Position numbers and translations under genes: made by a program. Positions 1 through 37,588 of a DNA stretch of 64,000 nt are shown piece by piece. The notes beneath the pieces are model-generated. The model worked only from the letters and a program-made list of their open reading frames with translations. It made no database searches and was not told where the DNA came from. Position 1 is the first letter of the stretch. The number at the start of each line of letters is the position of its first letter. The stretch is from a virus (lineage: Duplodnaviria > Caudoviricetes): positions 1 to 64,000 of the IMG/VR virus record IMGVR_UViG_3300033074_001674, one strand, 5' to 3'.

Positions 1-216
1 GCTTGGTATGCTGCTAGGGCTGCTAGGGATGTTGCCTGGTCTGCTAGGGCTGCTGCCTGGTCTGCTAGGGCTGCTGCTAGGGCTGCTGAGGCTACTGCTT
101 GGGTTGCTGCCGATGCTGACGATGCTGCCAGGTCTGCTGTCTATGCTGCCGGCCCCATTGAGTACGAATGGCAAATCCAAGAACTAACTAAGGCGATTCT
201 ATGTTCGACCACATAA
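1..216 (+). CDS. 3' part of Ala/Trp/Arg-repeat phage protein (truncated by window edge)
   Basis: Frame 1 reads AWYAARAARDVAWSARAAAWSARAAARAAE...EWQIQELTKAILCSTT*; repeated (tct)gctagggctgct units. Confidence 0.75.
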   Translation, partial: AWYAARAARDVAWSARAAAWSARAAARAAEATAWVAADADDAARSAVYAAGPIEYEWQIQELTKAILCSTT

Positions 217-509
217 CATATTTTAAGGAGATGGGTAGACATAGCAATATTCCTGAGTGCTGTATCGAATTCTTCTGCTACAAATGGAATATTGATGGAT
301 GGTCAGAAGAAGCAATAAACAAAAGGTGGAGCAAAGTATACTCAATAGGCCCATACAAATATATGCCATGCGACAACTGCCTTGAAATAGGCAGAATAGC
401 AGAACTGCACATTTGTAATGAAAAGTGCGCAGAATACATAATCCTGTTAGGAAAGGCTACAAGAAAACCAAAAAAACAAATAATGTACTGTTTGTCGAAT
501 CTTTTTTAG
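201..509 (+). CDS. hypothetical Cys-containing protein
   Basis: 102 aa ORF, IPECCIEFF and PCDNC motifs, overlaps upstream stop. Confidence 0.7.
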   Translation: MFDHITYFKEMGRHSNIPECCIEFFCYKWNIDGWSEEAINKRWSKVYSIGPYKYMPCDNCLEIGRIAELHICNEKCAEYIILLGKATRKPKKQIMYCLSNLF

Positions 510-589
510 CCAGAGTGGCGGAATGGCATACGCAGGGCACTTAAAATGCTTGGCCGAAAGGCATAGGGGTTCGACTCCCCTCTCTGGCA
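509..589 (+). tRNA. tRNA-Leu (TAA)
   Basis: GCCAGAG/CTCTGGC acceptor, anticodon loop CTTAAAA, long variable arm GCC-GAAA-GGC, T-loop TTCGACT; no encoded CCA. Confidence 0.95.
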
Positions 590-591
590 AT

Positions 592-662
592 TGGTGGCAG
601 TTCAACTCAAAACTCTTTTAATAACCCCAATCCCACAGGCAAGCGTGGTTGGGCTGCCACCA
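592..662 (+). ncRNA. candidate structured RNA, long terminal stem
   Basis: TGGTGGCAGTTCAAC (592-606) pairs with GTTGGGCTGCCACCA (648-662); intergenic, directly after tRNA-Leu. Confidence 0.5.
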
Positions 663-703
663 TCTAAACACGTTGCATAATGCAACCCAACAAGGAGTGT
701 AAA

Positions 704-982
704 ATGTCGATTCAGAAGAGCTTTGACATCGGAATCAGCGGCCCTGAGAAGAAGAAGGGATGGTTCTCGTGGCGCCATCCGAACAACGTCGCCCATGAGG
801 CGGCTAAGGCCCGCAGGATGGCTCACCTGGAGGCATGGCAGAAGTCCTTTCTGACCATCGCCCTTGCCAGGGCTGAGCGGACTCCCAAACAGCAGTTGGC
901 CCTGCTAGACAAGAGGCTCGGCCGAGGTCAGGGCGCCGTAAAGGAGCGTGCCAGGCTCCTAAAGCAGATTGGGCAAGGCTAA
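704..982 (+). CDS. hypothetical basic protein
   Basis: AGGAG RBS before ATG 704; C-terminal RTPKQQLALLDKRLG..GAVKERARL. Confidence 0.75.
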   Translation: MSIQKSFDIGISGPEKKKGWFSWRHPNNVAHEAAKARRMAHLEAWQKSFLTIALARAERTPKQQLALLDKRLGRGQGAVKERARLLKQIGQG

Positions 983-1167
983 TGGGTTGGGAATTCCACA
1001 ATCACGTAGTGATTGGCACTTGCTCAAATTGCGGAGGGCCCGTAGTGGTGCCCAACGCATATCTGAGCCTAATTCAGCCAGCCCCGAAGTGCATGAACTG
1101 CGGGGCCAAGGCATCGGAGTCGTATGGCCCAATCATTCAGATGGGGCCACCGGAAAGACCAGTCTAA
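982..1167 (+). CDS. zinc-ribbon protein
   Basis: CSNCGG...CMNCG; TAATG coupling. Confidence 0.75.
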   Translation: MGWEFHNHVVIGTCSNCGGPVVVPNAYLSLIQPAPKCMNCGAKASESYGPIIQMGPPERPV

Positions 1168-1180
1168 CCAAGGAGATATA

Positions 1181-1345
1181 ATGGCCAAGCAAGGCGGTGG
1201 TGGCGAAGGGCAAGTCAAGATTGCTTGCAACTGTGCAAGTCCTTACCAAGACGAGCGTTATGGTAAGGGAATCCGAATCCACACGAACGGTGCGGGCAAG
1301 AAGAAGACCTGCAGCGTTTGTGGCAAGCAGACCCAAGTGGTCTAG
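1181..1345 (+). CDS. small Cys/His metal-binding protein
   Basis: AAGGAG RBS; CNC...YQDERYGKG.R.H...CSVCG. Confidence 0.7.
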   Translation: MAKQGGGGEGQVKIACNCASPYQDERYGKGIRIHTNGAGKKKTCSVCGKQTQVV

Positions 1346-1353
1346 GAGAAAAA

Positions 1354-1608
1354 ATGAACATCAGTCGTGGTGAACGTCGCAAGTTGCGCATGAGTCTGGG
1401 CTCAAGGACCAACAGGCGCAGGGGCGTCAAGACCAAGGTCATCAAGCAAGTCAGTCCTGGCAAGCCATGTCCGAAGTCTCGCTATCCCAACTCGGCATCC
1501 GCCAACAATATGCCGCGTCCGGCCAAGCGCCTTCGCAGCCTCATTCACCGCTACCTGGCAGGCGAGGTGGATGTGAACGGCCAGCGCCCCAAGGGGGATG
1601 CCTCGTAG
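1354..1608 (+). CDS. hypothetical Arg/Lys-rich protein
   Basis: AGGAG RBS before ATG 1354. Confidence 0.6.
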   Translation: MNISRGERRKLRMSLGSRTNRRRGVKTKVIKQVSPGKPCPKSRYPNSASANNMPRPAKRLRSLIHRYLAGEVDVNGQRPKGDAS

Positions 1609-1667
1609 GAAAACAAGCTCTACTACTTCTGCTGCATAACTGTCCACTGTCGTGAGATAGAGGGCAG

Positions 1668-1774
1668 GGCCGCATGGTCTAAGTAAGACGGTTTGGAGAG
1701 GAGGTAAATCTTCCAGGCAAAGAATTTATTTTGCCAGCTCCAAACAGATAGTGGTGCGAATCCACTTGCGGCCA
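1668..1774 (+). ncRNA. tRNA-like RNA with branched insert replacing the anticodon loop
   Basis: GGCCGCA/TGCGGCC acceptor, GTCT/AGAC D-stem, GTTTGGAG/CTCCAAAC stem enclosing two hairpins, AGTGG-TGCGAAT-CCACT T arm. Confidence 0.8.
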
Positions 1775-1782
1775 ATCTCGTT

Positions 1783-1976
1783 ATTCCAGTCCTGTCTTAA
1801 ATGATAAAGGAAAACAGCGGAGGGTTCGCGAGATGCCCATCTAGAGGCTGCTGTTGGAATGGGCTGTTGTTTCAGGTCATGCTCCTTGCGAGTATGACAA
1901 ATGCTGGGTTAAGTTCGGTTTTGCCGGACACCATTGCGTATACAGCACTGGCCATCATGATGAGGGTGGTCCTACA
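1783..1976 (+). ncRNA. candidate structured RNA(s) between two tRNA-like elements
   Basis: Helices AACAGCGG/CTGCTGTT, GTCATGCTC/GAGTATGAC, GTTCGG/CCGGAC, TGCTG/CAGCA, GGCCATC/GGTGGTC; overlapping ORFs look spurious. Confidence 0.5.
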
Positions 1977-1977
1977 T

Positions 1978-2046
1978 TCTCCCGAAGCCAAATAGTGAGG
2001 CGCCACAGTGATGTGGATATTCCAGGTGCAAATCCTAGCGGGAGCC
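1978..2046 (+). ncRNA. tRNA-His-like RNA with 4-nt anticodon loop (or tRNA pseudogene)
   Basis: CTCCCG/CGGGAG acceptor, GCC/GGC D-stem, CCACA-GTGA-TGTGG, T arm CCAGG-TGCAAAT-CCTAG, discriminator C. Confidence 0.7.
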
Positions 2047-2080
2047 AAGCTCAATTGCCGCTAGGGCCAAAGAGGCTAAT

Positions 2081-2332
2081 ATGACATGGGATGGAATTTA
2101 TTCCTATCAAGAGATAGTCTCTCTGCTTAAAAAGGCAAATGCAACGGCAAATAATGGCAGAGGCGTCAAGAGTATCAAATCATATATCACTCTCATAGAG
2201 AACCGCCTTTTTGCTCAGGCTCAAGCCCTTCTAAATACAGAATGGGATAAAATAAGGAACTATCCATCCATTGTAGAAGTTCTTAGGCAGACTGGCGTAA
2301 TAGGTAAAGATGAAAGGTTTTGGCCGAATTGA
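2081..2332 (+). CDS. hypothetical protein
   Basis: 83 aa ORF with GAGG RBS. Confidence 0.7.
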   Translation: MTWDGIYSYQEIVSLLKKANATANNGRGVKSIKSYITLIENRLFAQAQALLNTEWDKIRNYPSIVEVLRQTGVIGKDERFWPN

Positions 2333-2485
2333 GACAAGACCATAATCAAATCCTTCTTGAGGCTGAGGAAGAAATACAAAGCGCTTTTAATAAAGTACTG
2401 GACATCTTTGAAAGTGATGTGGTAAATGTTCCTGAAACACCCTTACAAAGTGTTCTACTTCGCATTTGATAGATAGGGAAACAAC

Positions 2486-2734
2486 ATGAGTATCTCAATT
2501 AAAAACATGACGCCAGAAAAGCCTGTCAAGAAATTTAAAGATATAAAAGCAGGTACAGCATTTCAGAAGTACTATAAAATTGACGATGTTGTAAACTGGT
2601 TTTATATCAAGACAAATGATGAAATGTATCATAATGCGATACGAATAGGAGAGGATGGCGCTTTACTTGCACAATTCGGAGAGAATACACACGTAATAGA
2701 ACTAGAAGTAGATATTAAGACAAAGGAAATTTAG
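2486..2734 (+). CDS. hypothetical small beta-barrel-like protein, paralog of 3165..3404
   Basis: Shared F.xI..GT.F...IKT...NAI pattern. Confidence 0.7.
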   Translation: MSISIKNMTPEKPVKKFKDIKAGTAFQKYYKIDDVVNWFYIKTNDEMYHNAIRIGEDGALLAQFGENTHVIELEVDIKTKEI

Positions 2735-2742
2735 CAATTCAA

Positions 2743-2838
2743 GTGGCAAATACGGACTTTGACAAAATCCGTAACTACCCTGAAGTAGCGAAGCTCATTT
2801 TGGGGTATGGGTGGGTAAAGTGTCGCAGATATGATTGA
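2743..2838 (+). pseudogene. fragment paralogous to C-terminus of 2081..2332
   Basis: NTDFDKIRNYPEV vs NTEWDKIRNYPSI; in-frame stop at 2716-2718 just upstream. Confidence 0.55.
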
Positions 2839-2850
2839 AGGAAGGTCCTT

Positions 2851-3045
2851 TTGAGGCTCCTTTCAATAGATGCCGTTGCAAAAATGGCAGCTTTTGTACG
2901 CAAAAGGAACTTGTCACACGCAGATGCATACAATTCCTATATGGACATCGCTGCGCTAACTAGCGAGTTCCAGTATAGGGATAACAGCATTGAGCTCGTA
3001 CTGGCCTTTGTGAAATCAGACGAAATGCCAGAAAGGCTCTACTGA
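2851..3045 (+). CDS. hypothetical protein
   Basis: 64 aa ORF, TTG start after GAAGG. Confidence 0.5.
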   Translation: MRLLSIDAVAKMAAFVRKRNLSHADAYNSYMDIAALTSEFQYRDNSIELVLAFVKSDEMPERLY

Positions 3046-3061
3046 AATGGTAATACAGTAA

Positions 3062-3132
3062 GGGGTGGTAGTTCAAAGGGAGAATACTGGCTTTGCAAGC
3101 CGGGGATACGGGTTCGAGTCCCGTCTACTCCA
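3062..3132 (+). tRNA. tRNA-Ala (TGC)
   Basis: Cloverleaf, G3:U70, loop TTTGCAA, T-loop TTCGAGT. Confidence 0.95.
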
Positions 3133-3164
3133 AATGACCTGCGGTCAGAGATAAGAATAGGCAC

Positions 3165-3404
3165 ATGAAATACATTCTCAAGGATTTCTGCACAATTGAA
3201 ATTGGAACACACTTTCGCCTGTCAAATCTCCTCCGTCTAATTAAGACGGTTCCGTTCACAACGGATTTGGGCAAGAAGTGTAATGCAATCGTCCTTGAGG
3301 ATGGGGTTGTAGTAAGAGGAGATGAACAAGCGCATTACAATGCAGGCCAAGGCTATGTTTGCGAACCCTGGGAGGTTTGCGAAGTAAAGGTGCTAAATGT
3401 GTAA
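3165..3404 (+). CDS. hypothetical protein, paralog of 2486..2734
   Basis: FCTIEIGTHF...IKT...CNAI. Confidence 0.7.
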   Translation: MKYILKDFCTIEIGTHFRLSNLLRLIKTVPFTTDLGKKCNAIVLEDGVVVRGDEQAHYNAGQGYVCEPWEVCEVKVLNV

Positions 3405-3822
3405 CTTAAAAGAGGGGGATAGAATTGTTTGCAACCGCCATTCGCCCCATAATGGAAAGCATGGGACTATTATCGGGAAGCAATCCCCATGCTGCTATAG
3501 AATCACTGGGGAGTGCTGCTCAGTCTTTGATGTCAAATTAGACGACGGCCAGAGAGTTTACGTATACTCATACAAGCTTGGCTTTGAGGGTTCAACCCAA
3601 CAGGCCCCGGCTGCTCCTGACTTTTCTCCATTAAAAGTTGGAGATATGCTTAAGCTGCTGCACACCAACAAATCTAGAGTGGAGTGCACTTGCAAATCTC
3701 TCCTGTATGGCTGTATATGCGGTGCAGGTCGAGCCGAAATGACAGCTACCAATCCTACGATTGACCCTATGGTTGACTTCTTCAAATCTTCCACTAAGGA
3801 ATGGAAGTCGAAGCATGGATAA
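3397..3822 (+). CDS. SH3/KOW-like protein with Cys module
   Basis: LKEGDRIV...HNGKHGTII; CTCKSLLYGCICG. Confidence 0.7.
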   Translation: MCNLKEGDRIVCNRHSPHNGKHGTIIGKQSPCCYRITGECCSVFDVKLDDGQRVYVYSYKLGFEGSTQQAPAAPDFSPLKVGDMLKLLHTNKSRVECTCKSLLYGCICGAGRAEMTATNPTIDPMVDFFKSSTKEWKSKHG

Positions 3823-3864
3823 AAACTTGGTCATTAGTTGAGTTATAGTTAATAAAAAACATAA

Positions 3865-3938
3865 GCTCCGGTAGCTCAACAGGATAGAGCAGCGGTTTTC
3901 TAAACCGCAGGTTACAGGTTCGAGTCCTGTCCGGGGCA
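3865..3938 (+). tRNA. tRNA-Arg (TCT)
   Basis: GCTCCGG/CCGGGGC acceptor, loop TTTCTAA, T-loop TTCGAGT. Confidence 0.95.
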
Positions 3939-3952
3939 TTTAGGAATGCCTA

Positions 3953-4282
3953 ATGATATTGCCTTTTAGTGAGACTGTTGAGCCTGAGTTTGGCAAGGGT
4001 CCTGGCGGGTTTCATGATATCAAAGTAACAATTACATATAGGACTAATGAATATTGGGCAAAGGAAATTGAAAAGAACTTCCTGGATGCAAAAAGGATGA
4101 TTAGATGTCCTTCTTGCAACATACTCTGGAATCAGGTTTTGGGCGATAAAAATCGTCGCCATAGCAAAACTTGCATGTATCCAGAGATGCTTAAAAAATC
4201 TTGGGAAGATGCTATTGAGCATCACAAGAGACAAATTAAGTACTTTGAAAAAGAAATCGCTCTAATTGAAAAGAGTTTTTAG
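3953..4282 (+). CDS. hypothetical protein (CxxC...H...C)
   Basis: 109 aa ORF with AGGA RBS. Confidence 0.7.
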   Translation: MILPFSETVEPEFGKGPGGFHDIKVTITYRTNEYWAKEIEKNFLDAKRMIRCPSCNILWNQVLGDKNRRHSKTCMYPEMLKKSWEDAIEHHKRQIKYFEKEIALIEKSF

Positions 4283-4287
4283 TCAAA

Positions 4288-4545
4288 ATGAAAACTATTT
4301 TGTTAGCACTGGCTGTTCTGTGTGGATGTCTCCCTAATGAGCCTGACTCAAAACCACAGTTAAAACCAGAATCCAACATTTGGGAAAAAGTCCAACATCC
4401 AGATTCTTGGATATCTGTTTACAGAACTCAAACACCGGATGGCTGGCTTGTACTTGTTGAGTACAATAGCCATGGTACAAGTGCGGCGATTGTTAGTGAC
4501 CAAAATCATACGTGGCTTGCGCACAATCCTGAGAAAAACCAATAG
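4288..4545 (+). CDS. putative lipoprotein
   Basis: MKTILLALAVLCGC lipobox-like signal. Confidence 0.7.
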   Translation: MKTILLALAVLCGCLPNEPDSKPQLKPESNIWEKVQHPDSWISVYRTQTPDGWLVLVEYNSHGTSAAIVSDQNHTWLAHNPEKNQ

Positions 4546-4753: not shown

Positions 4754-4945
4754 ATGTTCGGTCTAATGATTGGCGGCAGGTCCGTCGCAATCTTCCGTAA
4801 TTCTAATTGCGGAAAGAATGTTTGGACGATGGAATCCGCGAATAATAATGGCAAAGACCTTAATTGGCATCACCACTCATGGTTAATCTTTGCCATTATG
4901 CACTTGATGTTATTCCTGGTTAGCGGGAGAAGGATTTCGCAATGA
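4754..4945 (+). CDS. hypothetical protein
   Basis: AAGGA RBS; ATGA overlap with next gene. Confidence 0.55.
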   Translation: MFGLMIGGRSVAIFRNSNCGKNVWTMESANNNGKDLNWHHHSWLIFAIMHLMLFLVSGRRISQ

Positions 4946-5304
4946 TGCTTTGGCTCGATGATGAGCGACCTGCCCCTAATGGATGGCGCCAGGCGTTCAA
5001 TTATGCCGAATTCGAGGCAATCGTGCTTGCTAATCCAAAACAAATCACCCACGTGAGTCTGGACCATGACCTTGGTAGCAAGATTCATACCGGATACGAT
5101 GCAGCTTGTCTACTGGAGAAGTTGGCGCATCAAGAGAAATTAAGGGCTGACATCCAGGTAGCGGTGCACTCCGCTAATCCGGTAGGCTGCAAAAGGATGG
5201 CCGCTGCGATAAGGGCAGCCAGAATTAGCACTATTTACAACAATAAGGACCCATACTGTGTGTGGTGGAGTCCAGACGTTGGCGTGCAATCCCAACATTG
5301 GTAA
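4942..5304 (+). CDS. cyclic-phosphate-processing receiver-domain protein
   Basis: LWLDDER, SLDHDLG, TGYD and VHSANPVG motifs. Confidence 0.85.
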   Translation: MMLWLDDERPAPNGWRQAFNYAEFEAIVLANPKQITHVSLDHDLGSKIHTGYDAACLLEKLAHQEKLRADIQVAVHSANPVGCKRMAAAIRAARISTIYNNKDPYCVWWSPDVGVQSQHW

Positions 5305-7810: not shown

Positions 7811-7997
7811 TCCTCCGCGTGTTAGACAGATAGCAAAAGGCACAATCACTATATCTTATAGATTTTGGATATAATACAAAAGATTAGGACTCAATGGCGC
7901 ATAGAGTCGCCCGAAAGGGAAACAAAGCGCCTGAGCGCCACCTCTCAGAGTGCAGGTGGTCTTATGCTATTAGCAGGTGCAACTCCTGTCGGAGGAA
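7811..7997 (+). ncRNA. tRNA/tmRNA-like RNA with ~130-nt internal domain
   Basis: TCCTCCG/CGGAGGA acceptor, ATAGCA-A-AAGGC/GTCTT-A-TGCTAT long helix, T arm GCAGG-TGCAACT-CCTGT. Confidence 0.72.
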
Positions 7998-9356: not shown

Positions 9357-9429
9357 GGCCCCATCGTCTAGTAGTCCAGGATTCTTGGCTTTCATCCAAG
9401 CGACGCGGGTGCAAATCCCGCTGGGGTCA
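9357..9429 (+). tRNA. tRNA-Glu (TTC)
   Basis: GGCCCCA/TGGGGTC acceptor, loop CTTTCAT, T-loop TGCAAAT. Confidence 0.93.
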
Positions 9430-17538: not shown

Positions 17539-17637
17539 TGAGACATCGACTAAGCTAAGTCATATCCTGGTAGTTGCTGGCTTTTGAAACCAATAAAGTA
17601 CTTGGATAAAATGCAAGTGCAAATCTTGCTGTCTCAC
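17539..17637 (+). ncRNA. tRNA-like RNA with elongated anticodon arm (tip reads TTG)
   Basis: TGAGACA/TGTCTCA, GACT/AGTC, TATCC/GGATA extended by an irregular helix, GCAAG-TGCAAAT-CTTGC. Confidence 0.8.
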
Positions 17638-17664: not shown

Positions 17665-17827
17665 GATAGGCGTCGTCTTAAAAGGAAAGATACCAAGAAC
17701 AGGGGATGTGTAAGCCTCAAGGAGTTGTCAAAGTTGCCTAGTTAGTGTACACAAGACTTAATCAGTGTGCGGTATCGAAGCAAGCTCCGTTCTTCAGGGG
17801 ATGCCGGTTCAAGTCCGGCCGCCTATC
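17665..17827 (+). ncRNA. tRNA-like RNA with ~90-nt multibranch insert in the anticodon arm
   Basis: GATAGGCG/CGCCTATC, GTCT/AGAT D-stem, AAGAAC/GTTCTT, GCCGG-TTCAAGT-CCGGC. Confidence 0.82.
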
Positions 17828-36967: not shown

Positions 36968-37220
36968 TGAGGAGTGTGAACTTGCGCTTAAAGATGACGC
37001 GCTAAACAAAATAACATATCTAATGATATTAGATGAGGCAGAGAGAGGATTAATACATACAGGAGATAGACAGAGCTTATTGAAAGCGATTAAATATTGC
37101 AAATCAAGGCCTTGGGCAAATGACAGAACGCTTATGGCAATAAAAGAAACGGAAGATTTAGTTCTTTATGGTGGATATGTGTTGACGTTACAACGAGGGC
37201 CGGAAATAGTATCGAACTGA
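36945..37220 (+). CDS. beta-beta-alpha paralog family member
   Basis: CELAL.DD...KITYLMILDEAERGL...GDRQSLL. Confidence 0.75.
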   Translation: MVKLIIANEECELALKDDALNKITYLMILDEAERGLIHTGDRQSLLKAIKYCKSRPWANDRTLMAIKETEDLVLYGGYVLTLQRGPEIVSN

Positions 37221-37567
37221 TAAGTAAGAGCAAAACTAGCAGGCCGTGGTTGAGCGCTGGCCACGTTAAAAAGCGTTCAAACTTAAAGTGCCAAGACCAC
37301 TTCAAAGTCTTATCGGGGTGGACGGACTCGTGCCGCTCGCCTCAGCGCTCTAAGCGCCGCTGCCTAATTAGCGTTATTTATTAGGGTGGCTCCTCAGCGC
37401 ACAATCTGAGGAGTTACAGCACATCGAGTCGAGAAGCTGTGACTATTTAGACTTGCGTTGCGCATTAAGAGGTAAATGCGATATTTCGTCAACTAGAAAA
37501 GTTGTCTAAGCCTGTAGAAAGTTTGCAATTTTTATCAGTGACCCGGGGGCAGTACCCGGCCGGTCCA
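37197..37567 (+). ncRNA. ssrA: tmRNA (one-piece); tag AKTTSKSYRGGRTRAARLSALSAAA at 37290-37367
   Basis: GGGCCGG/CCGGTCC-A with G3:U70, ACTGATAA/TTATCAGT helix, PK1 (CGTGGTT/GGCCACG, GAGCGCT/AGCGTTC), GCC resume codon, tag ends AAA*. Confidence 0.93.
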
Positions 37568-37588
37568 TTTAATTATTGGAAGAATATT

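What the first reader, a model, noticed from the sequence alone, without database searches (positions are those of the whole stretch)
1668..1774. tRNA-like RNA whose anticodon loop is replaced by a two-hairpin junction
Seen: an 8-bp stem GTTTGGAG/CTCCAAAC encloses GGAGG-TAAAT-CTTCC and GGCAAAG-AATTTA-TTTTGCC hairpins. The rest is a normal cloverleaf with a 4-nt variable loop, and no anticodon can be assigned. A GNRA-capped hairpin (1640-1666) precedes it.
Basis: seen in the sequence. Interest (0 to 1): 0.7.

Follow-up and report, generated by a model that had tools for sequence, protein, structure and literature searches.

The report
Non-decoding tRNA look-alike in phage
This 107-base stretch of a large uncultured phage is a real, conserved gene for an RNA with the frame of a tRNA (closest to the phage's own glutamate tRNA) but a long closed stem and a fast-changing cap where the codon-reading loop should be; this puts it with the tRNA-like stable RNAs of phages T5 and T4, whose function is still unknown.

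Summary
Window 1668-1774 (+) folds exactly as described (z = -6.4), and the GNRA hairpin 1640-1667 abuts it.

I found the same element in three related phage lineages from metagenome assemblies. Its tRNA core is better conserved (83-89% identity) than the neighbouring protein gene (73-76%). Double-sided compensating changes keep the acceptor stem (1 pair), the long 'anticodon' stem (3 pairs) and both flanking hairpins.

The two-hairpin junction itself is not conserved. Relatives carry an 11-nt loop or an unrelated 40-nt insert on the same 8-9 bp stem.

ARAGORN in intron mode reads the element as tRNA-Gly(GCC) with a 32-nt intron. I reject this: the anticodon-like loop is absent in the relatives, and I found no RtcB, Rnl2-type RNA ligase or tRNA-splicing endonuclease in the phage record. 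Rfam's tRNA model does not match it.

It is one of at least six odd tRNA-shaped RNAs on the same strand in this phage's tRNA island, and it most resembles the phage's tRNA-Glu.

Closest known: T5 RNA1 and RNA2 and T4 RNAC, which have tRNA frames with remodelled middles and no known function. Earlier stages of this scan noted many similar RNAs in other phages.

Verdict: a new member of a known, functionally unexplained kind. Expression, processing and function are untested.

The parts
1640..1667 (+). 5' flanking hairpin. It has a 6-bp outer stem, an A/A internal mismatch and a 5-bp inner stem capped by the GNRA tetraloop GUGA. It ends flush against base 1 of the acceptor stem.
   Evidence: RNAalifold consensus on 5 sequences. 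The inner 20 nt are identical in all relatives. Outer-stem pair G:C changes to A:U and U.G to U:A. Fold of the upstream 45 nt gives -14.7 kcal/mol.
1668..1774 (+). The tRNA-shaped RNA gene (107 nt), including discriminator A1774. No CCA is encoded.
   Evidence: The MFE fold equals the cloverleaf, z = -6.4. Covariance model R1 finds it at 126 bits here and at 84-129 bits in four relatives. No Rfam family matches at E <= 10.
1668..1674 (+). Acceptor stem, 5' strand. It pairs with 1767-1773.
   Evidence: 7 of 7 Watson-Crick pairs. Pair 3:70 is C:G here and U:A in L021 and L023.
1677..1689 (+). D arm: 4-bp stem GUCU/AGAC with the 5-nt loop AAGUA, which has no G18-G19.
   Evidence: Invariant in all five sequences. 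The 'UC-GUCU' start is shared with the phage tRNA-Glu at 9357.
1691..1698 (+). Lengthened 'anticodon' stem, 5' strand. It pairs with 1738-1745 (8 bp).
   Evidence: In the structural register, relatives keep 8-9 bp. Pair 4 goes U:A to C:G, pair 6 G:C to A:U, pair 7 A:U to G:C, and pair 1 is G:C, G.U or A:U. In the model-fitted alignment, 96.6% of cells are paired, against 32-46% when partners are slid by 1-3 columns.
1699..1737 (+). Variable cap of the long stem. In this genome it is a three-way junction with hairpin 1 (1700-1714, G-rich AGGAGGU on its 5' side) and hairpin 2 (1716-1735).
   Evidence: Present here and in L020 and L022, where hairpin 2 keeps 7 bp through G.U to U:A and A:U to G.U changes. 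Replaced by 11 nt in L021 and by an unrelated 40 nt in L023. A purine-rich motif (AGGAGGU, GUGGGGAU or GCAGGGAU) is the only part kept.
1746..1749 (+). 4-nt variable loop AGAU (GAU in the more distant relatives).
   Evidence: A 4-nt variable loop is also found in the phage tRNA-Glu.
1750..1766 (+). T arm: 5-bp stem and the 7-nt loop UGCGAAU, with G at position 55 instead of U.
   Evidence: The stem is invariant. The loop is UGCGAAU here and UGCAAGU in relatives. UGC T loops are also found in five other elements of this genome, none of which has GG in its D loop.
1784..1812 (+). 3' flanking hairpin UUCC...UGUC-UUAAAU-GAUA...GGAA, 10 nt after the discriminator.
   Evidence: RNAalifold consensus. 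The inner-stem pair U:A changes to C:G in L021 and L023, and the loop UUAAAU is invariant. It is not followed by a U run.
1354..1608 (+). Upstream gene for an 84-aa, very basic, arginine-rich protein with no family match. It was the handle used to find the relatives, and it lies directly upstream of the element in every contig found.
   Evidence: It was called as a gene in the JGI record.

Best explanation
Window 1668-1774 is a functional gene for a non-decoding tRNA look-alike. It probably descends from a duplicate of the phage's tRNA-Glu.

It keeps the parts of a tRNA that are read by tRNA-processing enzymes and by proteins that bind the tRNA body: a 7-bp acceptor stem, discriminator A, a T arm, a D arm, U8, and a reduced elbow. 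The codon-reading end is replaced by a closed helix at least 3 bp longer than an anticodon stem, topped by a cap that is free to change.

Proposed mechanism:
1. It is transcribed on the + strand with the small genes and tRNAs of the phage's tRNA island.
2. It is cut out by the host's tRNA end-processing enzymes and given CCA by the host enzyme, as the phage's ordinary tRNAs must be.
3. It accumulates as a stable L-shaped RNA of about 107 nt.
4. It cannot pair with a codon, so it acts off the ribosome's decoding site, as a tRNA mimic that occupies a host or phage protein which recognises the acceptor/T/D body and not the anticodon.

Shown here: the fold, its conservation through compensating changes, the lack of a conserved 7-nt anticodon loop, and the non-conservation of the cap. 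Inferred only: transcription, processing, stability and the binding partner.
For: 1. Fold: the cloverleaf is the MFE structure, z = -6.4.

2. Orthologues: the element is present in seven contigs from independent samples, forming three lineages.

3. Conservation pattern:
- The core is 83-89% identical between lineages, against 73-76% for the adjacent ORF.
- The strands of the long stem are only 50-62% identical, yet stay fully paired.

4. Compensating changes:
- Acceptor pair 3:70 goes C:G to U:A.
- Long-stem pairs 4, 6 and 7 change on both sides, and pair 1 is GC, GU or AU.
- Covariation score is 0.183 against 0.110 +/- 0.021 for shuffles (0 of 500 reach it), and pairing falls to 32-46% when partners are slid.
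- Both flanking hairpins also co-vary.

5. It does not decode:
- The cap is 45, 11 or 40 nt in the three lineages.
- No conserved 7-nt loop with U33 is present.
- Rfam's tRNA model fails at E <= 10 in the window and at E <= 1 on the 80-nt form in L021.
- Standard ARAGORN is silent.

6. tRNA-Glu ancestry: the acceptor matches the phage tRNA-Glu(UUC) at 9357-9429 in 6 of 7 positions, and the two share the UC-GUCU D-arm start, a 4-nt variable loop and a UGC T loop.

7. Genomic setting: same strand and same island as 9 ordinary tRNAs and at least 5 other remodelled tRNA-shaped RNAs.

8. CCA: none of the phage's tRNAs encodes CCA, and I found no CCA-adding enzyme in the phage record, so host processing is needed for all of them.

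9. Precedent: T5 RNA1 and RNA2, annotated as 'tRNA-like stable RNA with unknown functions', fold as tRNA frames with enlarged anticodon arms. T4 RNAC carries a tRNA T arm and is a detected stable RNA (PMC9697503).
Against: - No RNA data: no listed sequencing run is on record as RNA, so expression, ends and CCA are unproven.
- The 5' hairpin ends flush at position -1. A paired -1 base is expected to be a poor RNase P substrate, so the element may stay embedded in a longer RNA.
- Only three independent lineages are available, so the covariation statistics are thin.
- All relatives were found through the upstream gene, so the linkage to that gene is biased by the method.
- No binding partner is identified.
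- The rapid turnover of the cap and of neighbouring tRNA-like elements (1813-2326 is deleted in L020) fits weak selection on parts of the island.
Confidence: 0.6

Rival explanations
1. It is a cis-acting processing signal and not a trans-acting RNA. The tRNA frame recruits RNase P and 3' end-processing enzymes to cut the polycistronic transcript. This would leave the upstream mRNA (gene 1354-1608) ending in the protective GNRA hairpin 1640-1667 and release the downstream structured RNAs. The excised tRNA-like piece would be a by-product.
For: - The hairpin lies exactly flush with the predicted RNase P site, and it is the most conserved 20 nt of the whole spacer.
- The element always follows the same small gene.
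- No terminator-like site is found between the gene and the element.
- The cap is free to vary.
- From established knowledge: RNase P cleavage at a tRNA-like structure makes the 3' end of MALAT1, and tRNAs punctuate mitochondrial and some bacterial operon transcripts.
Against: - RNase P and RNase Z need only the acceptor/T minihelix and elbow. Selection for the D arm and for an 8-9 bp 'anticodon' stem (3 double-sided changes) is not explained.
- Of 16 tRNA and tRNA-like genes in the genome, only this one has a hairpin flush with its 5' end.
- A paired -1 base should hinder RNase P, not help it.
Confidence: 0.2
2. It is a decaying tRNA pseudogene: a tRNA-Glu-like copy whose anticodon loop was hit by insertions. 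It would be kept only by recency, with no function.
For: - Phage tRNA islands turn over quickly. Here 1813-2326, including another tRNA-like element, is missing in L020.
- The cap changes by blocks of about 29-34 nt between close relatives.
- Several other elements in the genome look degenerate.
Against: - The core is more conserved than the adjacent coding gene.
- At least four stem pairs in the element, plus pairs in both flanking hairpins, changed on both sides while keeping pairing, and all 24 pairs hold in all three lineages in the structural register.
- Tertiary-interaction bases (U8, the D-loop A and G, the T-loop U54, C56 and A58) are invariant.
Confidence: 0.12
3. It is a tRNA-Gly(GCC) gene with a 32-nt intron at position 31/32, as ARAGORN's intron mode reports. 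Removing 1699-1730 would leave the loop UUGCCAG on the stem.
For: - ARAGORN -i at its default threshold calls it here and in L020.
- The residual loop UUGCCAG matches, from memory, 6 of 7 bases of the E. coli tRNA-Gly(GCC) anticodon loop.
- The GCC triplet is paired with the 5' strand of hairpin 2, as intron-anticodon pairing is in eukaryotic pre-tRNAs.
Against: - The loop is absent in L021 (loop GUGGGGAUAAU) and in L023. ARAGORN -i does not call the element in L021, L022, L023 or L024.
- The spliced product would have an 8-bp anticodon stem.
- The proposed cut sites lie at a junction base and inside a helix, so there is no bulge-helix-bulge motif.
- 32 nt is far too short for a group I or II intron.
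- The phage carries a tmRNA and a DnaE-type polymerase, which points to a bacterial host. From established knowledge, bacteria lack a tRNA-splicing endonuclease.
- I found no RtcB, RNA ligase (PF09414) or tRNA intron endonuclease in the phage record.
- The acceptor has A73 and G2:C71/C3:G70, not, from memory, the bacterial glycine identity set.
Confidence: 0.03
4. It is an off-ribosome aminoacyl carrier: a tRNA body that is charged but kept away from decoding, and that donates its amino acid to a phage peptide-modifying enzyme.
For: - The UGC T loop and the D loop without GG are the marks of the staphylococcal 'non-proteogenic' tRNA-Gly species, which feed cell-wall synthesis and bind EF-Tu and ribosomes poorly (PMC7826273).
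- The window is rich in amidoligase, COOH-NH2 ligase and glutamine amidotransferase genes.
- The acceptor stem and discriminator are conserved.
Against: - Those ligases use ATP, not aminoacyl-tRNA.
- I found no FemAB-type transferase or GluRS in the phage record. The LanB-type search was uninformative because its control did not ring.
- GluRS needs the UUC anticodon, which is absent.
- The same UGC T loop occurs in the phage's ordinary decoding tRNA-Glu and tRNA-Met, so it is not specific to the non-decoders.
Confidence: 0.05

Closest known systems
Bacteriophage T5 RNA1 (144 nt) and RNA2 (125 nt), annotated in GenBank AY543070 as 'tRNA-like stable RNA with unknown functions'
   Same: - They are encoded in a phage tRNA island interspersed with small ORFs and homing endonucleases, on the same strand as the tRNAs.
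- Both fold with an acceptor stem, D arm and canonical T arm, but with the anticodon arm turned into a long stem carrying extra hairpins.
- Their function is unknown.
   Different: - I found no sequence similarity: blastn of 1400-2100 against phage records gave no match.
- The T5 RNAs have UUC T loops, GG-containing D loops and a long variable arm (Leu- or Ser-like frames).
- This element has a Glu-like frame with a UGC T loop, a 5-nt D loop and a 4-nt variable loop.
- The T5 RNAs were seen as stable RNAs experimentally. This one has no expression data.
Bacteriophage T4 RNAC (species 1, 139 nt) and RNAD (species 2, 119 nt)
   Same: They are small stable RNAs encoded next to the T4 tRNA genes. 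RNAC ends in a canonical T arm (CCGGG-UUCGAAU-CCCGG) plus an acceptor-like stem, with long hairpins in the middle. Their roles are unknown (PMC3014915, PMC9697503).
   Different: RNAC has no recognisable D arm and only an imperfect acceptor stem. RNAD showed no tRNA-like fold in my hands (z = -0.8). They share no sequence with this element.
The phage's own tRNA-Glu(UUC), window 9357-9429 (Rfam RF00005, 56 bits)
   Same: - The acceptor is GGCCCCA against GGCCGCA here.
- Both start the D arm with UC-GUCU.
- Both have a 4-nt variable loop.
- The T loop is UGCAAAU against UGCGAAU here.
- Both have discriminator A and no encoded CCA.
   Different: tRNA-Glu has a 5-bp anticodon stem and a 7-nt loop with UUC. 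The element has an 8-9 bp stem and a variable cap, and it does not score with the tRNA model.
Staphylococcal non-proteogenic tRNA-Gly (NP1-NP3)
   Same: The T loop has UGC or UGU instead of UUC. These are tRNAs specialised for a role off the ribosome (PMC7826273).
   Different: Those tRNAs keep a normal anticodon arm and are charged by GlyRS. Here there is no anticodon, charging is untested, and the UGC T loop is also found in this phage's decoding tRNAs.
tRNA-like domain of tmRNA
   Same: It has an acceptor stem and T arm with a reduced D region, and a long helix in the place of the anticodon arm. The phage also encodes a full tmRNA at 37197-37570.
   Different: This element has no G3:U70, no mRNA-like part and a true 4-bp D stem. 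The Rfam tmRNA model does not match it.

Membership tests
tRNA (Rfam RF00005), decoding tRNA | Scores with the tRNA covariance model at or above its gathering score (29 bits) | tested here: not met
   No hit at 1668-1774 even at E <= 10. The 80-nt orthologue in L021 gave no hit at E <= 1. The six ordinary tRNAs of the window score 40-69 bits.
tRNA (Rfam RF00005), decoding tRNA | A 5-bp anticodon stem closed by a 7-nt loop with U33 and an anticodon, conserved among orthologues | tested here: not met
tRNA (Rfam RF00005), decoding tRNA | 7-bp acceptor stem, 4-bp D stem, 5-bp T stem with a 7-nt loop, U8 and a discriminator base | tested here: met
   All are present and conserved. Deviations are G55 in the T loop and no G18-G19 in the D loop.
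Intron-containing tRNA (protein-spliced, bulge-helix-bulge type) | A bulge-helix-bulge motif at the exon-intron borders, a splicing endonuclease and ligase available, and a mature tRNA of normal geometry | tested here: not met
   The borders proposed by ARAGORN lie at a junction base and inside hairpin 2. No PF01974, PF01139 or PF09414 match was found in the phage record. The product would have an 8-bp stem, and the loop is not conserved.
Self-splicing (group I or II) intron in a tRNA gene | An intron of about 200 nt or more with a matching ribozyme core | tested here: not met
   The insert is 32-45 nt. No Rfam intron family matches in 1-4500 at E <= 10.
Phage tRNA-like stable RNAs (T5 RNA1 and RNA2, T4 RNAC): a descriptive class, not a homology family | Encoded within the phage tRNA gene island on the tRNA strand | tested here: met
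   tRNA-Leu is at 509, tRNA-Ala at 3062 and tRNA-Arg at 3865, all on the + strand. The island continues across the record's ends.
Phage tRNA-like stable RNAs (T5 RNA1 and RNA2, T4 RNAC): a descriptive class, not a homology family | tRNA acceptor and T arms with a remodelled or enlarged middle and no usable anticodon | tested here: met
   for this element. for the T4 and T5 RNAs folded with the same tool.
Phage tRNA-like stable RNAs (T5 RNA1 and RNA2, T4 RNAC): a descriptive class, not a homology family | Accumulates as a discrete stable RNA in infected cells | not testable with these tools
   No listed sequencing run is on record as RNA. The host is unknown.
Phage tRNA-like stable RNAs (T5 RNA1 and RNA2, T4 RNAC): a descriptive class, not a homology family | Sequence homology to the T4 or T5 RNAs | tested here: not met
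   blastn of 1400-2100 against 50,697 phage records gave no match. Model R1 finds only this lineage.
tmRNA (RF00023) tRNA-like domain | A G3:U70 alanine identity pair, and a tag reading frame or a partner piece | tested here: not met
   Pair 3:70 is C:G or U:A. There is no tmRNA model hit at this place.

The most novel reading that the evidence does not exclude
The tRNA frame is a natural 'tRNA scaffold'. It would give host-enzyme processing and nuclease resistance to a small, fast-evolving effector module displayed at the tip of a rigid 8-9 bp arm. The only part of the cap kept in all lineages is a purine-rich, Shine-Dalgarno-like motif right after the stem (AGGAGGU, GUGGGGAU or GCAGGGAU). 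A similar AGGGGAU sits at the same place in the paralogous element at 17666-17827. On this reading, the phage's six or more remodelled tRNAs would be a toolkit of scaffolded small RNAs or aptamers, for example ribosome-, anti-SD- or protein-directed. They might work with the arginine-rich 84-aa protein encoded just upstream and the invariant GNRA hairpin.
Probability: 0.1. Interest if true: 0.75.

Novelty: new member of a known kind. Interest (0 to 1): 0.4.

Why it matters
Phage tRNA islands are usually read only as sets of decoding tRNAs. This element shows, with compensating mutations, that a phage keeps under selection an RNA that has the tRNA body but cannot decode.

It adds a well-defined example, with natural variants, to a class known since the T4 and T5 era whose function has never been found. 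The natural variants (short loop, two hairpins, or an unrelated insert on the same stem) already indicate which parts matter, namely the frame and the long stem. That makes a deletion or swap experiment easy to design.

If the class acts as tRNA mimics against host tRNA-directed defences, or as natural scaffolds for small RNAs, it would matter for phage-host conflict and for RNA engineering.

Tried and rejected
**Searches for homologues that found nothing**
- blastn of 1400-2100 against GenBank phages.
- Exact or degenerate DNA patterns for the T arm plus acceptor, the 5' hairpin, and the D arm plus T loop in IMG/VR: 0 hits each.
- Neighbouring proteins 3397-3822 and 4942-5304 in IMG/VR: no relatives.
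- Terminase relatives are at most 37% identical, and model R1 found nothing in five of their records except one ordinary 71-nt tRNA-sized hit.
- The best DnaE matches in GenBank phages are at most 36% identical.

**Probable chance matches**
- The 20-nt hairpin core hit five JGI or ENA contigs in unrelated contexts (L026-L030). About 1-2 chance hits are expected for a 20-mer in a collection of that size, by my rough estimate. No tRNA-like element follows in any of them and Rfam finds nothing there, so I treat them as chance.

**Sequencing runs**
- No RNA holder is listed.
- Contigs of four DNA runs were laid. They showed that relatives cover the element, but the table of substitutions was cut before the element. 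I fetched the relatives through the protein index instead.

**Other tests that led nowhere**
- The intron reading from ARAGORN -i is rejected; see the rival explanations.
- Low-threshold ARAGORN -i calls elsewhere in the genome (47424, 66344, 150084-158941) are mostly poor cloverleaves inside coding sequence. I did not use them.
- Family searches in the phage record for CCA-adding enzyme, RtcB, RNA ligase, tRNA endonuclease, FemAB, LanB and GluRS were all empty. The LanB search is uninformative because its control did not ring. T4 Rnl1 (PF09511) was not searched.
- Pfam and PHROGs give nothing for the flanking small proteins.
- A flush 5' hairpin as a general feature of the phage's tRNA genes: only this element has one.
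- The MAFFT and model-fitted alignments put the more distant relatives' long stem one column out of register. I counted those pairs by hand in the structural register.

Full report
**What is there**

The window is the first 64 kb of a 165,893-bp IMG/VR phage record with 41.8% G+C. The phage encodes nine ordinary tRNAs, a tmRNA at 37197-37570, a DnaE-type polymerase, a terminase, and many amidoligase and amidotransferase genes. The tmRNA and the polymerase type point to a bacterial host.

A JGI contig of the same length joins the record's last base to its first. The tRNA genes at 150-166 kb and at 0.5-10 kb therefore form one island.

The unconstrained minimum-free-energy fold of the 107 nt is that cloverleaf: a 7-bp acceptor stem, a 4-bp D stem, an 8-bp stem closing a three-way junction with two hairpins, a 4-nt variable loop and a 5-bp T stem. 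Its energy is -45.5 kcal/mol, against -26.4 +/- 3.0 for shuffles (z = -6.4).

A 28-nt hairpin with a GUGA tetraloop occupies 1640-1667 and ends flush against the first acceptor base.

The cloverleaf is not quite normal. The D loop is only AAGUA, with no GG, and the T loop reads UGCGAAU, so position 55 is G and not U. Standard ARAGORN and Rfam, even at E <= 10, do not call the element.

**Relatives**

I found nothing similar in GenBank phages or in IMG/VR, either by DNA or through neighbouring proteins. The nearest terminases and polymerases are at most 37% identical.

Public runs did hold related DNA. I reached it through the small gene just upstream (1354-1608, an 84-aa arginine-rich protein). 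Its clusters led to contigs L020 and L022 (about 95% identical to the window), L021, and L023, L024, L031 and L032. The last five have an upstream ORF 73-76% identical to the window's at the DNA level.

All of these contigs carry the element in the same place. That gives three lineages.

**What is conserved and what is not**

| Part | Between-lineage identity or behaviour |
|---|---|
| tRNA core | 83-89% identical |
| 5' hairpin | 89% identical, inner 20 nt identical |
| Adjacent ORF | 73-76% identical |
| Strands of the long stem | 50-62% identical, yet fully paired |
| Cap of the long stem | not alignable |

In the structural register, the long stem changes as follows:
- Pair 4 goes U:A to C:G.
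- Pair 6 goes G:C to A:U.
- Pair 7 goes A:U to G:C.
- Pair 1 is G:C, G.U or A:U.
- The more distant lineages add a ninth pair.

Acceptor pair 3:70 changes from C:G to U:A. Both flanking hairpins (1640-1667 and 1784-1812) also change on both sides while keeping pairing.

On a model-fitted alignment, 96.6% of cells pair, against 32-46% when partners are slid by 1-3 columns. The covariation score exceeds all 500 shuffles. With only three lineages these figures are indicative and not conclusive.

The cap of the long stem differs in each lineage:
- This genome and its near relatives have a 45-nt junction with two hairpins. Hairpin 2 keeps 7 bp through changes in L020 and L022.
- L021 has a bare 11-nt loop, or a 7-nt loop on an 11-bp stem.
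- L023 has an unrelated 40-nt insert.

Only a purine-rich motif right after the stem's 5' strand persists. The two-hairpin junction is therefore a local state. The conserved object is a tRNA frame with a lengthened, closed arm.

**Is it a tRNA with an intron?**

ARAGORN in intron mode calls tRNA-Gly(GCC) with a 32-nt intron at 31/32, which leaves the loop UUGCCAG. I reject this reading for these reasons:
- The loop is absent in L021 and L023. ARAGORN calls the element only in the window and L020, not in L022, which differs at position 9.
- The spliced product would keep an 8-bp anticodon stem.
- The cut sites do not form a bulge-helix-bulge motif.
- The insert is far too small to be self-splicing.
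- I found no tRNA endonuclease, RtcB or Rnl2-type ligase in the phage record. From established knowledge, bacteria have no tRNA-splicing endonuclease.

**Origin and family within the genome**

A scan for a perfect 7-bp acceptor stem joined to a T arm finds all ordinary tRNAs. It also finds other remodelled elements on the + strand:
- 7811-7997 (187 nt).
- 17539-17637 (99 nt, with an arm of about 15 bp ending in a Gln-like loop).
- 17666-17827 (162 nt).
- 158782-158844 and 164047-164108 (about 62 nt each).

The slightly imperfect 1978-2047 is perfect in L022.

The present element is closest to the phage's tRNA-Glu(UUC) at 9357. The two share:
- the acceptor stem in 6 of 7 positions,
- the UC-GUCU start of the D arm,
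- a 4-nt variable loop,
- a UGC T loop,
- discriminator A.

All six elements with a UGC T loop lack GG in the D loop, and seven of eight with UUC have it. This fits the loss of the G18-psi55 contact as a shared trait of a sub-lineage of this phage's tRNAs, which includes the decoding tRNA-Glu and tRNA-Met.

No phage tRNA encodes CCA, and I found no CCA-adding enzyme in the phage record. Host end-processing must therefore serve them all.

**How it most likely works**

The parts kept are those read by RNase P, the 3' processing enzymes, the CCA enzyme and proteins that bind the tRNA body. The part lost is the one needed for decoding.

I therefore read it as a non-decoding tRNA mimic that is made and stabilised like a tRNA and that acts by occupying a protein which recognises the tRNA body (confidence 0.6 for this overall reading). 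The partner is unknown. Transcription, processing and binding are inferred, not shown.

The main rival, at 0.2, is a purely cis role as a processing signal that leaves the upstream mRNA ending in the flush GNRA hairpin. That role does not explain selection on the D arm and the long stem, and a paired -1 base should hinder RNase P.

The remaining rivals are a neutral pseudogene (0.12), an aminoacyl carrier (0.05) and an intron-bearing tRNA-Gly (0.03). The UGC T loop is the mark of staphylococcal non-proteogenic tRNA-Gly (PMC7826273). However, it is also present in this phage's decoders, and I found no FemAB-type transferase or GluRS in the phage record (the LanB search was uninformative).

**Comparison with what is known**

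GenBank AY543070 annotates T5 RNA1 and RNA2 as 'tRNA-like stable RNA with unknown functions', inside a tRNA island that also holds small ORFs and HNH endonucleases. Folded with the same tool, both are tRNA frames whose anticodon arm has become a long stem with extra hairpins.

T4 RNAC, next to the T4 tRNAs, ends in a canonical T arm. Its role and that of RNAD are stated to be unknown (PMC3014915, PMC9697503).

The present element has the same design and setting but shares no sequence with them. It has a different (Glu-like, G55) frame, and there are no expression data for it.

Earlier notes of this scan describe many similar 'tRNA frames with swapped middles' in other phages and pointed me to T4 and T5. 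I checked those two comparisons myself.

**Verdict**

It is a new member of a known but functionally unexplained kind, of moderate interest.

Noticed in passing
window 1354-1608 (+) with 1640-1667: The gene directly upstream encodes an 84-aa, very basic protein whose N-terminus (SRGERRKLR...RTNRRRG) resembles, from memory, the arginine-rich RNA-binding peptides of lambdoid N proteins. The 20-nt core of the GNRA hairpin that follows it is the most invariant stretch of the spacer in all relatives. They may be a protein-RNA pair.
   Followed up: partly
window 1978-2047 (+); L022:3000-3068: This is a second tRNA-shaped RNA, with a 5-bp 'anticodon' stem sealed by a GUGA tetraloop and a UGC T loop. 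The T-stem and acceptor mismatches seen in the window are perfect pairs in relative L022. The whole block 1813-2326, including this element, is absent from relative L020.
   Followed up: partly
window 7811-7997, 17539-17637, 17666-17827 (+); genome 158782-158844 and 164047-164108 (+): Five more RNAs have a perfect 7-bp acceptor stem plus T arm but enlarged (99-187 nt) or shrunken (62-63 nt) middles. The element at 17539 shares the AAG(C)UA D loop, the 4-nt variable loop and the UGC T loop with the element studied. The element at 17666 carries AGGGGAU right after its long stem, like the relatives' caps.
   Followed up: partly
whole genome, tRNA and tRNA-like genes: T-loop UGC (G55) goes with D loops that lack GG in 6 of 6 cases, including the decoding tRNA-Glu (9357) and tRNA-Met (162918). 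T-loop UUC goes with GG in 7 of 8 cases. This looks like a lineage of phage tRNAs with a reduced elbow contact.
   Followed up: partly
L023:2517-2650 (+): In a related phage, a tRNA with canonical D and T loops passes the Rfam tRNA model (41.7 bits) but has a 66-nt insert in place of the anticodon loop. The window has no counterpart.
   Followed up: no
L021, L023, L024, L031 and L032, between the 84-aa gene and the 5' hairpin: The more distant relatives carry an extra ~190-nt hairpin-rich non-coding block there that is absent from the window. It is another sign of rapid gain and loss of structured RNA modules.
   Followed up: no
window 1905-1990 (+); L023 about 860-960: A stretch with GGTTTTGCCGGACACC ... 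CTGGCCATCATGATGAGGGTGGTCC is conserved between the window and the distant lineage. It contains an AUGAUGA, box-C-like or kink-turn-like motif.
   Followed up: no
genome 93221-97819 (-): The DnaE-type DNA polymerase is in two ORFs (627 aa and 535 aa) separated by about 1.1 kb. This suggests an intervening mobile element; several HNH and GIY-YIG endonuclease genes are present in the window.
   Followed up: no
record ends (genome 165893 / 1): A JGI contig of identical length joins the record's last base to its first, so the IMG/VR record is a rotated or circularly permuted form. The label 'linear, 74% complete' may understate it.
   Followed up: yes
L026-L030: The 20-mer CCACTGTCGTGAGATAGAGG occurs exactly in five unrelated metagenome contigs. 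Three of these are one family, and L029 has a second CTGTCGTGAGATA copy nearby. It is probably chance, but this was not examined further.
   Followed up: partly
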